The notes beneath the pieces are model-generated. The model was not told the DNA's origin. It saw only the letters and a list, made by a program, of their open reading frames with translations, and did not search any database. A stretch of DNA of 64,000 bases from contig MU053652.1 of the NCBI GenBank assembly GCA_013239625.1, positions 6,873,902-6,937,901 of the forward strand. Reading direction: 5' to 3'. The stretch is from Lama guanicoe (lineage: Eukaryota). Below, piece by piece: positions 11,160-60,909 of the stretch; the first letter of the stretch is position 1; every line of letters begins with the position of its first letter. The position numbers and the translations under genes were made by a program.

Positions 11160-11305
11160 TATACATAAATATTTTTATTTAAGTATAGTCAGTTTACAAT
11201 GCTATGTCAATTTTTGGTGTACAGCACAATGCTTCAGTCATACATGAACAAACATATATATTCATTTTCATATTCTTTTTCACCATAAGTTACTACAAGA
11301 TACTC
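11160..11305 (-). mobile_element. Young lineage-specific L1, 5'-truncated 3' end
   Basis: 'aagtatagtcagtttacaatgctatgtcaatttttggtgtacagcac...' is homologous to copies at 19441 and 28461; flanked by direct repeat GTGTCTTTA (11151-11159 / 11306-11314). Confidence 0.8.
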
Positions 11306-12418: not shown

Positions 12419-12670
12419 TTTTTTTTTTTTAACATTTTTCATTGATCCATAATCATTTTACAATGCTGTGCCAAATTCCAGTGTTCAGCACAACCTTTCA
12501 GTCATTCATGGACATATACACACTCATTGTCACATTTTTTTCTCTGTGATTTATCATAACATTTTGTGTATATTTCCCTGTGCTATACAGTGTAATCTTG
12601 TTTATCTATTCTACAATTTTCAAATCCCAGTCTATCCCTTCCCACCCTCTACCTCCCTGGTAACTATTTT
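12419..12670 (-). mobile_element. Young L1 3' end (second subfamily) with poly(T) and TSD
   Basis: Poly-T then 'aacatttttcattgatccataatcattttacaatg...cccttcccaccctc'; near-identical flanks 'cttttttattgtt(g/a)tttatttttc'; sister copy at 44788. Confidence 0.85.
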
Positions 12671-19440: not shown

Positions 19441-19687
19441 ATTTTTTTTATTTTTTTTTACTGAGGTATAGTCAGTTTACAATATTCTGTCAATTTCTGG
19501 TGTACAGTACAAAGCTTCAGTCATACATGAATATACATATATTCATTTTCACATTCTTTTTCACTGTAAGCTACCACAAGATATTGAATATGTTTCCTTG
19601 TGCTACACAGTATAAACTTGCTTATCTATTTTATACATAGCAGTCAGTATCTGCAAATCTCAAACTCCCGGTTTATCCCTTCCCACC
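19441..19687 (-). mobile_element. Young L1 3' end with poly(T) and 11-bp TSD
   Basis: TSD CTATTCACTCT (19430-19440 / 19688-19698); homologous to copies at 11160 and 28461. Confidence 0.9.
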
Positions 19688-19698
19688 CTATTCACTCT

Positions 19699-28460: not shown

Positions 28461-30383
28461 TTTTTAAATTGAAGTATAGTCAGTTTACAATGTGTCAATT
28501 TCTGCTGTGCAGCATAATGTTTCAGTCATACATATACATACATATATTTGTTTTCATAAATGGTTACTACAAGATATTGAATATAGTTCCCTGTGCTATA
28601 CAGAAGAAACTCATTATTTATCTATTCTGTATATAGTAGTTAGTATCTGCAAATCTTGAACTCCCAATTTATCCCTTCCCATCCCCCTTTCCCCCCAGTA
28701 ACCATACATTTGTTTTCTATGTCTGTGAGACTGAGATTTTGTGTTCTCTCTTTTCTTCTTGGTGAGCCTGGCCAGAGGTTTGCCAATTTTGCTTACTCTT
28801 CCAAAAAACAAGCTCTTGATTTGATTGATCTTTTTTCTATTTTTTTAAATCTCTATTTTATTTACTTCCTCCCTGATCTTTATTATTTCTTTTATTCTGT
28901 TGACTTTAGGTTTTATTTGTTCTTTTTCTAATTCTTTTAGGTAGTAGGTTAGGTTCTACTTTTATGAGGAAGGCCCGTATCACTATGAACTTCCCTCTTA
29001 GGACTGCTTTGGCTGCATCCCATAGATTTGGTGTGGTTGTGTTTTTATTGTCATTTGTCTCAAGATATTTTTAAATTTTTTCTTTGATTTCATCACTGAC
29101 CCATTGGTTTTTGAGTAGCATGTTGTTTAGTCTCCAGGTAGTGATATTTTTCTCATTTATTTTTCTGTGATTGATTTCTAGTTTCATGGCATTGTGGTCA
29201 GAAAAGGTGCTTGAAATTTCTATCCTCTTACATTTGTTGAGGCTTCTTTGTGTCTGAGTATGTGGTCTATCCTAGAGAATGTTCCATGGGCACTTGAAAA
29301 TAATGTATATTCTGTTTTGGGGGGGTGTAATGTCCTAAAAATATCAACCCAATCTGACTGTTCTATTGTGTCATTTAGTATCTCCATTGCCTTACTGATT
29401 TTCTGTCTGAAAGACTTGTCTAATGATGTCAGTGGGGTGTTGAAGTCTCCTACTATTATTGTATTCCCATAAATTTCTCCCTTTATGTCTGTTAGTATTT
29501 GTTTTATATATTTAGGTGCTCCTATATTGGGTGCATATATGAGTATAACATCCTCTTCTTGTATTGCTCCTTTGATCATTATATAGTGTCCTTCTTTGTC
29601 TTTTCTCATGGTCTTTGTTTTAAAATCTGTTCTGTCTTATATGAGTATTGCTACTCTAACTTTCTTGTAATTTCCATTTGCATGAAGTATCTTTTTCCAG
29701 CCTCTCACTTTCAATCTATGTGTGTCCTTCACTCTACAGTGGGTCTCTTGTAGACAGCATAGGGTAGACTTTTGTTTCATTATCCAATCTGCCACTCTAT
29801 GTCTTTTAATTGAAGCAGTTAGTCCATTGACGTTTATGATAATTATTGATAAATGTGTGTTTATTGCCATTTCAAATTTTGTTTTCCAGTAGATTTGGTA
29901 TTTCTTCTTTGTTCCTATTTTTTTTTTTTGTGGTTTGATCATTTTCTTTTGTATAAACTTGGTTTCTTTGTTACTCTATTGTATGCTTTTGATTTGTGGT
30001 TACCCTGTTTTTCAAATATGATAACCCATTACTATATGTGTTTGCTTTAGACTAATAGTCATGTAGGCTCAAACACATCCTAAGAAGAATGAAGAGAAAA
30101 TCTACATTTTCTTGCTCCTCTCTCCCCCCTTGTATGATTTTGATGTTCTCTTTTACATTTTTATGTGTATTCACTTACAGCTATTGTAGTTCGCCTTTCC
30201 AATTATGATTTTGTTTTTTCTATAGCTTTCTGCTTCTTTTCTACTTAGAGTAGATCTTTCAATATTTCTTTTAGGATAGTCTTAGTATTCCTGAATTCTT
30301 TTAGTTTTTGCTTGACTGTGAAATTCTTTCTCTCTCCTTCTACTCTAAAGGATAGTCTTGATGGGCAGAGTATTCTAGGTTGC
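28461..30383 (-). mobile_element. Young L1: ORF1 C-terminus, ORF2 endonuclease domain and 3' UTR, with RT region deleted
   Basis: Minus-strand ORFs 'HLSIIIINVNGLTASIKRHRVADW...CCLQETH', 'DKEGHYIMIKG...IYAPNIGAP...GDFNTPL...FSRIDHIL' and 'KIGKPLARLTKKKRE' joined to the 3' UTR at ~28735; TSD c(c/t)att(a/g)tattcctttt at ~28446 and ~30383. Confidence 0.92.
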
Positions 30384-44466: not shown

Positions 44467-44787
44467 AAAGAAATACAAGAAACAATAGGGCCATCAAAAA
44501 CTTGAGGCAGGATGGGAAGGAAGAAGAAATAGAAATTGTTAATTCTTTATATGTTTTATCATTCACACCAAATAATCAATATGTAGCAATATATAAAAGC
44601 TGATACAACATATAAATTAATAAATATAATGATAAAAAACTAAGTACCAACTGTAAGTCCCCTAAATGGTCAGAAGGGAAACACATACAAGAAAAACAAG
44701 ACAAAGACAATGCAAATCAAAGATAGATTTTAAAGGGAGATTCAAAAAAAAAAAAAAGGAAGAAGAAATAGAAATTGTTAATTCTTT

Positions 44788-45007
44788 TTTTTTTCTTTTT
44801 TTTTTCTTTAACATTTTCATTGATTCATAATCATTCCACAGTGCTGTGCCAAATTCCAGTGCTCAGCACAATCCCCCAGTCATACATGGACATCCACACA
44901 CTCACCGCCACACCCCTTTCTCTGTGATCCATCACAACATTCTGTGTACATTTCCCCGTGCTACACAGTACAATCCTGTCCATCAGCTCCACAACCTTGA
45001 AATCCCA
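44788..45007 (-). mobile_element. Young L1 3' end, heavily T-to-C (sense A-to-G) substituted
   Basis: Poly-T, then ungapped homology to 12440-12629 with about 29 T-to-C differences. Confidence 0.9.
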
Positions 45008-45053
45008 AAAGCCAAGCACATCAGGCCAAGAATATACACACGTGCGCATGCAG

Positions 45054-45060
<7 letters not shown>

Positions 45061-45100
<40 letters not shown>
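45061..45100. repeat. (CA)n microsatellite
   Basis: Directly visible, 20 units. Confidence 0.95.
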
Positions 45101-60045: not shown

Positions 60046-60909
60046 NNNNNNNNNNNNNNNNNNNNNNNNNNNNNNNNNNNNNNNNNNNNNNNNNNNNNNN
60101 NNNNNNNNNNNNNNNNNNNNNNNNNNNNNNNNNNNNNNNNNNNNNNNNNNNNNNNNNNNNNNNNNNNNNNNNNNNNNNNNNNNNNNNNNNNNNNNNNNNN
60201 NNNNNNNNNNNNNNNNNNNNNNNNNNNNNNNNNNNNNNNNNNNNNNNNNNNNNNNNNNNNNNNNNNNNNNNNNNNNNNNNNNNNNNNNNNNNNNNNNNNN
60301 NNNNNNNNNNNNNNNNNNNNNNNNNNNNNNNNNNNNNNNNNNNNNNNNNNNNNNNNNNNNNNNNNNNNNNNNNNNNNNNNNNNNNNNNNNNNNNNNNNNN
60401 NNNNNNNNNNNNNNNNNNNNNNNNNNNNNNNNNNNNNNNNNNNNNNNNNNNNNNNNNNNNNNNNNNNNNNNNNNNNNNNNNNNNNNNNNNNNNNNNNNNN
60501 NNNNNNNNNNNNNNNNNNNNNNNNNNNNNNNNNNNNNNNNNNNNNNNNNNNNNNNNNNNNNNNNNNNNNNNNNNNNNNNNNNNNNNNNNNNNNNNNNNNN
60601 NNNNNNNNNNNNNNNNNNNNNNNNNNNNNNNNNNNNNNNNNNNNNNNNNNNNNNNNNNNNNNNNNNNNNNNNNNNNNNNNNNNNNNNNNNNNNNNNNNNN
60701 NNNNNNNNNNNNNNNNNNNNNNNNNNNNNNNNNNNNNNNNNNNNNNNNNNNNNNNNNNNNNNNNNNNNNNNNNNNNNNNNNNNNNNNNNNNNNNNNNNNN
60801 NNNNNNNNNNNNNNNNNNNNNNNNNNNNNNNNNNNNNNNNNNNNNNNNNNNNNNNNNNNNNNNNNNNNNNNNNNNNNNNNNNNNNNNNNNNNNNNNNNNN
60901 NNNNNNNNN
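60046..60909. other. Assembly gap (864 N)
   Basis: Run of N. Confidence 1.

What the first reader, a model, noticed from the sequence alone, without database searches (positions are those of the whole stretch)
44810..45007. Strand-specific A-to-G hypermutated L1 3' end: candidate ADAR-edited RNA fixed in the genome by retrotransposition
Seen: this copy aligns without gaps to the sister copy at 12440-12629. By manual count about 29 of about 38 differences over ~190 bp are T (sister) to C (this copy), often in runs, e.g. 'cattgtcacattttttt' vs 'caccgccacaccccttt' and 'gatttatcataac' vs 'gatccatcacaac'. The related copies at 11160, 19441 and 28461 mostly have T where they can be aligned, so C appears derived. 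The element is antisense, so these are A-to-G changes on the L1 RNA strand. Established: clustered A-to-G is the ADAR A-to-I signature, whereas APOBEC3 gives sense G-to-A and CpG decay gives C-to-T/G-to-A. Inference: a hyper-edited L1 transcript was reverse transcribed and integrated, which would be a germline route from RNA editing to DNA mutation. Main alternative: poor base calls downstream of the long poly-T run.
Basis: partly seen in the sequence, partly recalled or inferred. Interest (0 to 1): 0.85.

Follow-up and report, generated by a model that had tools for sequence, protein, structure and literature searches.

The report
A-to-G hypermutated L1 tail insertion
A short L1 retrotransposon tail in this mammalian genome, like about two dozen others elsewhere in the genome, carries dozens of A-to-G changes on its RNA strand only, which fits RNA editing by ADAR before the copy was inserted, so edited RNA became heritable DNA.

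Summary
Window 44818-45007 aligns without gaps to 12440-12629 with 38 differences, 29 of them T>C. Against 40 unbiased genomic copies the focal copy has 34 T>C, 2 A>G, 1 G>A and 0 C>T; those copies average 0.97 T>C. Older copies show T is ancestral.

The element is the antisense 3'UTR of an L1 whose longer relatives encode ORF2p, so the changes are A>G on the L1 RNA strand. It is not unique. At least 17 measured copies have 10-39 such changes at differing sites. Genome-wide double-change patterns gave 8 and 12 matches, against 0 and 0 for their mirror images.

Edited sites prefer a 5' U or A and avoid G and C. In 5 of 5 long copies the cluster stays inside the 3'UTR. Four hypermutated copies have intact target-site duplications. 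One independent run carries the C-rich sequence, which argues against an artefact.

Best reading (about 0.8): ADAR-hyperedited L1 mRNA was reverse transcribed and inserted. Still open: the dsRNA partner, the focal copy's missing duplication, and its 305-kb distance from the other most-edited copy.

The parts
44810..45007 (-). Hypermutated L1 3'UTR fragment (antisense on the + strand; 198 nt, ends inside the 3'UTR). It has 34 T>C on the + strand, which is A>G on the L1 RNA strand.
   Evidence: longer relatives encode the L1 ORF2p C-terminus
44788..44809 (-). Poly(A) tail of the focal element, seen as a 22-nt poly-T with two C interruptions
44549..44757 (+). Later nested insert ending in 13 A, placed at the edge of the focal tail. 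It is single-copy in this genome.
   Evidence: present in contigs of all four runs laid
44519..44548 (.). Left copy of the 30-nt direct repeat flanking the nested insert
   Evidence: read
44758..44787 (.). Right copy of the 30-nt direct repeat flanking the nested insert
   Evidence: read
45008..45056 (.). Right flank of the focal element. No target-site duplication is found here, and the junction at 45007/45008 may be secondary.
45057..45100 (.). (AC)n microsatellite
12431..12660 (-). It has 8 differences from the young majority, 7 of them T>C.
19454..19689 (-). Older L1 3' end used as an outgroup for polarity
11168..11279 (-). Older L1 3' end (partial) used as an outgroup
28462..28684 (-). 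Older L1 3' end used as an outgroup

Best explanation
The focal element is the DNA copy of an L1 mRNA whose 3'UTR had been hyper-edited by an ADAR-type adenosine deaminase. Inferred steps: the 3'UTR of an L1 transcript paired with an antisense L1 3' end RNA, and thousands of 5'-truncated copies could supply one. ADAR then converted about 40% of the adenosines in the duplex to inosine, preferring A preceded by U or A. The mRNA kept intact ORFs because editing stayed in the 3'UTR. L1 reverse transcriptase read inosine as G during target-primed reverse transcription, and the insertion entered the germline. Shown here: the strand, direction, density, neighbour bias and 3'UTR restriction of the changes; their recurrence at independent insertions; and their presence in independent sequence data. 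Not shown: the RNA editing itself, the enzyme and the duplex partner.
For: (1) Spectrum. The focal copy has 34 T>C of 40 differences, against a mean of 0.97 T>C in 40 unbiased copies. A second copy, L011, has 39 of 39 T>C. Pooled over 15 hypermutated copies: T>C 303 of 1335 cells, A>G 13 of 780, C>T 5 of 525, G>A 5 of 315.
(2) Polarity. T is the state in 4,989 pattern matches. Of the first 100 listed, 93 are all-T, 7 have one C and none has more. T is also the state in older copies.
(3) Strand specificity genome-wide. Patterns that require two adjacent T>C gave 8 and 12 matches. The mirrored patterns with two adjacent A>G gave 0 and 0.
(4) Neighbour bias on the sense strand. By 5' neighbour: U 0.37, A 0.25, G 0.13, C 0.09. 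By 3' neighbour, G is highest at 0.28. Site-level Mann-Whitney test for 5' U/A against C/G gives p = 1.5e-4, and 1.6e-4 without the focal copy. Passages read in PMC4365171 describe G depleted upstream and enriched downstream of ADAR hyper-editing sites.
(5) Density. The 38-44% of A changed is in the range I recall for long perfect dsRNA.
(6) Retrotransposition hallmarks. Hypermutated copies carry poly(A) tails, 5' truncation and intact identical target-site duplications of 15, 15, 12 and 14 nt in L011, L002, L008 and L005. Apart from T>C they have few changes (0-6; 6 in the focal copy itself), so the changes came in one burst.
(7) Domain. In 5 of 5 copies longer than the 3'UTR the cluster ends 237-255 nt from the tail. 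T density beyond that point is unchanged and ORF2 is spared.
(8) Sources. The copies carry at least three different subfamily marker sets, so several source elements are involved.
(9) Independent data. Run X4 has a 217-nt contig with 3 other letters over 44822-45007.
Against: No dsRNA partner was identified. The sense 3' end alone shows no unusual fold (326 nt, z = -1.06). A 5' C is as depleted as a 5' G, whereas I recall U>A>C>G for ADAR1. The 3' G enrichment is only a trend (p = 0.10-0.31). The 15 pooled copies were found by similarity to the focal copy, so shared sites are inflated. The focal copy has no recognisable target-site duplication. The contig in run X4 continues past 45007 with 8 letters that differ from the window's flank. 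A human cell-culture study reported no editing of L1 RNA by ADAR1 and an editing-independent restriction (PMC5224506, passages read). The two most heavily changed copies lie 305 kb apart on one contig, which an RNA-level process does not predict.
Confidence: 0.8

Rival explanations
1. Error-prone reverse transcription. During target-primed reverse transcription the L1 reverse transcriptase repeatedly put dC opposite template rA, for example under a dCTP-rich and dTTP-poor nucleotide pool, over the first ~250 nt of cDNA.
For: The changes lie in the part of the RNA that is copied first, and they stop after ~240-255 nt in 5 of 5 long copies. The change class (sense A>G) is what rA:dC mispairs would give. 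This is inference; pool-bias hypermutation by retroviral RT in vitro is recalled.
Against: The ~25 nt copied first, next to the tail, are almost unchanged: 5 of 150 cells against 298 of 1185 elsewhere. The companion error expected from a sloppy RT, sense U>C through G:U wobble, is absent: A>G on the + strand is 13 of 780, mostly at one polymorphic site. The bias for a 5' U or A matches ADAR. It does not match easier extension after a mispair in a dCTP-rich pool, which would favour a 5' G (inference).
Confidence: 0.07
2. Hypermutation in situ after insertion. A strand-specific DNA-level process, for example ADAR acting on the DNA strand of RNA:DNA hybrids formed by antisense L1 RNA, changed A to G on the L1 sense DNA strand at resident copies.
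For: The two most heavily changed copies are 305 kb apart on one contig. A third copy 32 kb from the focal one has 7 T>C of 8 differences, which hints at a regional effect. The focal copy lacks a target-site duplication. ADAR activity on DNA in hybrids is recalled from the literature and was not read here.
Against: The other hypermutated copies are scattered over many contigs. The changes follow each element's own orientation, not the chromosome strand. The changed domain is the same 3'UTR block at every locus, and the duplicated target sites are identical. Flanks of the focal copy differ from four other organisms' contigs at only 2 of 440 positions each.
Confidence: 0.06
3. Sequencing or assembly artefact downstream of the poly-T run.
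For: The element follows homopolymer runs. In three of the four runs laid, no contig of 75 nt or more was shown over 44875-44924.
Against: Run X4, whose flanks differ from the window at several positions and so come from another individual, has a contig matching 183 of 186 positions of the C-rich sequence. The same signature occurs at 17 or more other loci without a shared upstream context. Errors would not respect an ADAR neighbour bias.
Confidence: 0.02
4. Reverse polarity. The C-rich state is ancestral, and the common T-rich copies arose by G>A (APOBEC-type) change on the sense strand.
For: A pair of copies alone cannot tell A>G from G>A. The published screens for DNA editing need a consensus filter for this reason (PMC4866542, passages read).
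Against: Each C-rich copy has its own set of C sites. The T state is shared by thousands of copies and by older families. L011 differs from the young majority by 39 T>C and nothing else.
Confidence: 0.01

Closest known systems
APOBEC3-hypermutated retroelements fixed in vertebrate genomes (Knisbacher & Levanon 2016, PMC4866542, passages read; Carmi et al. 2011, recalled; not held by DOI)
   Same: A host deaminase leaves a dense, strand-specific, single-class mutation cluster in a retroelement copy that still integrates and is inherited. Detection is by comparing copies and fixing polarity against the family consensus.
   Different: That case is C>U on minus-strand cDNA, giving sense G>A, mostly in LTR elements. 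Here the change is sense A>G, the opposite direction, on an L1, and it implies editing of the RNA template before reverse transcription.
ADAR hyper-editing of retroelement-derived dsRNA in transcripts (Porath et al. 2014, PMC4365171, passages read)
   Same: Clusters of A>G on one strand, with G depleted 5' of the site and a trend to G at the 3' side, in repeat-derived sequence.
   Different: That case is seen only as RNA-DNA mismatches and is not heritable. Here the G's are in genomic DNA, in independent insertions.
A-to-G hypermutation of exogenous RNA viruses and retroviral proviruses attributed to ADAR (for example LCMV, title seen in the reference list of PMC5224506; avian retrovirus cases recalled)
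   Same: Edited RNA genomes are copied, so inosine becomes a fixed G.
   Different: Those are infectious agents in somatic cells, not an endogenous non-LTR retrotransposon fixed in a host germline.
ADAR1 restriction of human LINE-1 (Orecchini et al. 2017, PMC5224506, passages read)
   Same: Contact between ADAR and the L1 ribonucleoprotein.
   Different: That study found no editing in more than 2.5 kb of L1 RNA and an editing-independent block. The footprints here imply that L1 3'UTRs are sometimes hyper-edited in vivo and that such RNAs can still insert.

Membership tests
LINE-1 insertion made by target-primed reverse transcription | Sequence is the 3' end of an element that encodes ORF2p | tested here: met
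   In longer copies of the same family, the 256-aa ORF just upstream of the 3'UTR matches human LINE-1 ORF2p residues 1018-1274 of 1275 at E = 7e-118. A Pfam scan of that segment gave 0 families.
LINE-1 insertion made by target-primed reverse transcription | Poly(A) tail at the 3' end and variable 5' truncation | tested here: met
   A 22-nt poly-T lies at 44788-44809, next to the element's 3' end. The copy is 198 nt long. The 40 random copies range from 130 nt to more than 800 nt.
LINE-1 insertion made by target-primed reverse transcription | Target-site duplication flanking the insert | tested here: not met
   For the focal copy, no shared word of 8 nt or more was found between the left flank and the 190 nt right of 45007. 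The feature is met for other hypermutated copies: L011 15 nt, L002 15 nt, L008 12 nt, L005 14 nt. None was found for L003 and L004, L006 is ambiguous, and L007 runs into an N gap.
ADAR (A-to-I) hyper-editing footprint | One mismatch class, A>G, on one strand only, in a dense cluster | tested here: met
   34 of 89 sense A sites changed, against 2 of 54 sense U sites. Mirrored genome-wide patterns gave 0 and 0 matches against 8 and 12.
ADAR (A-to-I) hyper-editing footprint | G depleted 5' of edited A (U and A favoured) | tested here: met
   Pooled: 5' U 0.37, A 0.25, G 0.13, C 0.09. A 5' G accounts for 31 of 240 cells against 229 of 975 for non-G, p = 2.9e-4. Focal copy alone: U/A 23 of 49 against C/G 4 of 32.
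ADAR (A-to-I) hyper-editing footprint | G enriched 3' of edited A | tested here: inconclusive
   3' G 33 of 120 against non-G 227 of 1095, p = 0.10.
ADAR (A-to-I) hyper-editing footprint | Long double-stranded RNA substrate | tested here: inconclusive
   There is no intramolecular duplex: the 326-nt sense 3' end folds at z = -1.06. An intermolecular antisense partner is plausible, given about 5,000 or more copies, but none was identified.
ADAR (A-to-I) hyper-editing footprint | Inosine in the RNA, and dependence on ADAR | not testable with these tools
   No RNA holder was listed. This needs RNA-seq or a genetic test.
APOBEC3 DNA-editing footprint | Sense-strand G>A clusters | tested here: not met
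   The focal copy has 0 C>T on the window + strand (the sense-strand G>A that APOBEC would leave) at 35 C sites, and only 1 G>A at 21 G sites. Polarity is fixed by outgroups.

The most novel reading that the evidence does not exclude
ADAR hyper-editing of L1 mRNA is a recurrent, heritable input to this genome. About 0.5% of young L1 insertions, roughly two dozen loci, are DNA copies of hyper-edited RNAs. Editing is tolerated only in the 3'UTR, either because ORF-edited RNAs cannot make working protein in cis or because ribosomes strip duplexes from coding sequence. These insertions would then be genomic fossils that record, site by site, where ADAR met L1 RNA in germ cells. That gives a direct route from RNA editing to germline DNA sequence and a possible driver of L1 3'UTR divergence. 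A bolder variant is not excluded: the 305-kb pairing of the two strongest cases reflects a local or in situ component.
Probability: 0.6. Interest if true: 0.85.

Novelty: new variant of a known kind. Interest (0 to 1): 0.75.

Why it matters
Deaminase footprints in inherited retroelements are well documented for APOBEC3 (DNA level, G>A). For ADAR, a 2016 review states that a role in retroelement evolution "has not yet been determined" (PMC4982230, passage read). The one direct test I read found no editing of human L1 RNA in cultured cells (PMC5224506).

If the present reading holds, three things follow. L1 RNA is hyper-edited in vivo in germline-competent cells. Such RNA can still retrotranspose. 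RNA editing can therefore be written into heritable DNA. The set of loci also provides a per-site editing profile and a sharp 3'UTR boundary, which make the questions of where and when ADAR meets L1 RNA directly testable.

Eight literature searches found no paper that describes ADAR-type hypermutated L1 insertions in a genome. The library lacks most subscription journals, so prior description cannot be excluded.

Tried and rejected
- **Intramolecular hairpin as the ADAR substrate.** The fold of the 326-nt sense 3' end is not better than shuffles (z = -1.06), so this was rejected.
- **Single edited source lineage.** No other copy is more than 86% identical to the focal copy, and hypermutated copies carry different subfamily markers, so this was rejected. 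Excess site sharing between pairs (for example focal and L002, 18 shared against 9.0 expected) is explained by hot spots plus selection of hits by similarity, and is not decisive.
- **General strand asymmetry of the family.** Rejected: pooled T>C 39 against A>G 26 in the 40 random copies. Polymorphic sites in the random set are 4 T>C against 4 A>G. Singletons are 15 T>C against 2 A>G, partly from one mildly affected copy, L106.
- **Short antisense partners truncated at the G-rich tract as the cause of the ~240-255 nt boundary.** Only 5 of 40 random copies end at 224-240 nt, so this is not enough on its own.
- **RNA evidence.** No RNA holder was listed.
- **Read cover in three runs.** No contig of 75 nt or more was shown over 44875-44924 in runs X1, X8 and X14. 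A part without cover is not evidence either way.
- **Nested insert as a local control for in situ mutation.** It has no other copy in the genome, so no comparison was possible.
- **Pfam on the ORF2 C-terminal segment.** 0 families; identity came from solved structures instead.
- **Earlier findings of this scan.** Nothing relevant.
- **Carmi et al. 2011.** Could not be read.

Full report
**1. The observation**

The stretch 44810-45007 begins right after a 22-nt poly-T run (44788-44809) and is homologous to 12431-12660. From 44818 to 45007 it aligns without gaps to 12440-12629. Of 190 positions 152 are identical.

**2. What the element is**

The window lies on contig C1339 of a 2.05-Gb assembly. 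The repeat is abundant: a 30-nt pattern from its centre, with T/C left free, has 4,989 matches. In longer copies the sequence continues into an open reading frame whose last 256 residues match human LINE-1 ORF2p residues 1018-1274 of 1275 at E = 7e-118. A Pfam scan gave no family.

The ORF2 stop codon lies about 265 nt from the tail in one subfamily and about 315 nt in another. The second subfamily carries an extra 53-nt low-complexity block. The focal element is therefore a 198-nt piece of an L1 3'UTR, antisense on the window's + strand. T>C on the + strand is A>G on the L1 RNA strand.

**3. Direction and significance**

I took the first 40 of the 4,989 pattern matches in contig order, so the sample is unbiased with respect to the focal copy. 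I used their per-column majority only to assign direction.

| Comparison | T>C | A>G | Other |
|---|---|---|---|
| Focal copy, 198 positions | 34 | 2 | 2 T>A, 1 A>C, 1 G>A |
| 40 random copies, per copy | mean 0.97, max 8 | – | – |
| 40 random copies, pooled | 39 | 26 | 89 T sites and 54 A sites |

The family as a whole has no strand asymmetry. For the focal copy, 34 of 89 T sites against 2 of 54 A sites gives p = 9.6e-7.

At the 35 sites where the focal copy has C and a typical young copy has T, three older L1 3' ends in the window have T at 27 of 35, 16 of 20 alignable and 25 of 33 alignable sites. Against its three closest subfamily relatives the focal copy has 35 T>C of 41 differences. C is derived.

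**4. The focal copy is not alone**

A search with the focal copy returned copies at most 86% identical, so no other copy shares its allele set. Many of the best hits nevertheless carry their own T>C clusters:

| Copy | T>C of all differences |
|---|---|
| L011 | 39 of 39 |
| L002 | 30 of 35 |
| L004 | 27 of 30 |
| L006 | 25 of 27 |
| L003 | 18 of 22 |
| L024 | 18 of 20 |
| L008 | 16 of 16 |

Fifteen copies have 10 or more. Two more came from a search with L011: L115 with 17 T>C inside the domain, and L116 with 11. These hits were chosen by similarity, so I also ran genome-wide pattern tests that do not depend on the focal copy.

- One 31-nt pattern that requires two adjacent T>C gave 8 matches. 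Its mirror, which requires two adjacent A>G in the same dinucleotide context, gave 0.
- A second 35-nt pair gave 12 matches against 0.
- The union is 15 loci, 6 of which I did not measure in full.
- A third pattern, with both T of one hot spot changed, matched only the focal copy and L011.

Roughly two dozen of about 5,000 young copies are affected, or about 0.5%. This is a lower bound, because the patterns allow no other change.

**5. Signature**

Pooled over the 15 copies:

| Class | Cells changed |
|---|---|
| T>C | 303 of 1335 |
| A>G | 13 of 780 |
| C>T | 5 of 525 |
| G>A | 5 of 315 |

On the sense strand, the fraction of A changed by 5' neighbour is U 0.37, A 0.25, G 0.13 and C 0.09. By 3' neighbour it is G 0.28, A 0.24, U 0.19 and C 0.16. 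At site level, 5' U/A against C/G gives p = 1.5e-4, and 1.6e-4 without the focal copy. In the focal copy alone the counts are 23 of 49 against 4 of 32.

The ADAR hyper-editing motif in the passages I read is G depleted upstream and enriched downstream (PMC4365171). The upstream feature is met. The downstream one is only a trend (p = 0.10).

**6. Extent**

In all 5 hypermutated copies that extend beyond the 3'UTR (L003, L004, L006, L008, L115), the cluster ends 237-255 nt from the tail, while T density stays the same beyond that point. L008 has 19 T>C in the first 237 nt and 3 in the next ~850 nt. ORF2 is therefore spared.

The ~25 nt next to the tail, which hold the AATAAA-like signal, are also spared: 5 of 150 cells against 298 of 1185 elsewhere.

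I see three possible reasons for the 3'UTR restriction. They do not exclude one another, and all are inferred.
- RNAs edited inside the ORFs cannot make working protein in cis.
- Ribosomes strip duplexes from coding sequence.
- The antisense partner has limited extent.

**7. Before or after insertion**

Hypermutated copies have the usual L1 hallmarks. Identical target-site duplications flank L011 (15 nt), L002 (15 nt), L008 (12 nt) and L005 (14 nt). None was found for L003 and L004, L006 is ambiguous, and L007 abuts an N gap. Apart from T>C these copies have few other changes (0-6; 6 in the focal copy), so the changes came in one burst. They carry at least three different sets of subfamily markers, which means several source elements. 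The changes always follow the element's own orientation.

This fits editing of the RNA intermediate. Because the changed domain is internal to the element, intact duplications alone do not exclude a domain-specific process in situ.

**8. The focal locus**

- No target-site duplication was found.
- A later insert ending in poly(A) (44549-44757), flanked by a 30-nt direct repeat (44519-44548 and 44758-44787), sits at the edge of the focal tail. It has no other copy in the genome.
- Contigs of four runs from four coded organisms and four studies carry the left flank and the nested insert, with 2 differences each in 440 nt.
- Only run X4 shows a contig across the hypermutated element: 217 nt, depth 3.8, 3 other letters over 44822-45007. 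Past 45007 it reads 8 letters that differ from the window's flank and look like L1 continuing with one more T>C.
- By depth arithmetic, the right-flank contigs of X1, X8 and X14 start at 45008.

The 45007 junction may therefore be a later deletion, or a second locus may exist in those genomes. I could not lay reads again. Either way, an independent data set reproduces the C-rich sequence, which argues strongly against a base-calling artefact.

**9. Unexplained**

The focal copy and L011, the two strongest cases, lie 305 kb apart on one contig, in opposite orientation and with different subfamily markers. The sister copy 32 kb from the focal one has 7 T>C of 8 differences; 1 of 40 random copies reaches 7. 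I could not fetch the intervening region. This keeps a small probability on a regional or in situ component.

**10. Comparison with what is known, and verdict**

- APOBEC3 footprints are the known inherited deaminase marks, with sense G>A. Here the direction is the opposite, and it is fixed by consensus and outgroups in the way those screens require (PMC4866542).
- ADAR hyper-editing of repeat RNA is well known but is not heritable (PMC4365171).
- A human cell study found no editing of L1 RNA (PMC5224506).
- A review says a role for ADAR in retroelement evolution had not been determined (PMC4982230).
- A mouse study considered ADAR for one endogenous provirus but found no ADAR context (PMC12548423).

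Eight searches found no report of ADAR-type hypermutated L1 insertions. The library is incomplete.

The finding extends from one copy to a recurrent class restricted to the 3'UTR. The enzyme, the duplex partner and the timing remain inferences.

Noticed in passing
window 44549-44757, with repeats at 44519-44548 and 44758-44787: A 209-nt insert ending in 13 A, flanked by a 30-nt direct repeat, sits at the edge of the focal element's tail. It has no other match in the genome. It may be a truncated retrocopy of a cellular transcript whose parent is diverged or unassembled.
   Followed up: partly
G000:C1339:7223749-7223971 (locus L069 3050-3272), 305 kb from the focal copy: A 223-nt L1 3'UTR copy in the opposite orientation has 39 of 39 differences T>C and a clean 15-nt target-site duplication. 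Together with the focal copy it is one of only two genome matches to the double-change pattern.
   Followed up: partly
window 12431-12660: The sister copy has 7 T>C among its 8 differences from the young majority. This is unusual against random copies (1 of 40 reaches 7). It may be mild editing or polymorphic hot-spot sites.
   Followed up: partly
window 45007/45008: The contig of run X4 continues past 45007 with 8 letters unlike the window's flank. The right-flank contigs of three other runs begin at 45008. The junction may be a later deletion or a second locus.
   Followed up: no
window 44531 and 44613: All four runs laid read G at 44531 and C at 44613 (one run heterogeneous at 44613) where the window has A and T. 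These are private alleles or errors of the assembly.
   Followed up: no
L071 about 310-360 and the matching gap in L074 (alignment A2, columns 306-358): A 53-nt T-rich low-complexity block lies just downstream of the ORF2 stop (sense orientation). It is present in one young subfamily, absent in another and partial in L004. A G-rich tract with four G-runs lies about 215-240 nt from the tail.
   Followed up: partly
L106 (G000:C837:349769-350599): One of the 40 random copies has 8 T>C of 15 differences. It may be a mildly edited copy.
   Followed up: no
window 44788-44809: The focal poly-T tail has two C interruptions, which are G in the poly(A) sense strand. I could not tell whether these are edited tail adenosines or ordinary tail heterogeneity.
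   Followed up: no
window 60046-60909: An assembly gap of 864 N.
   Followed up: no
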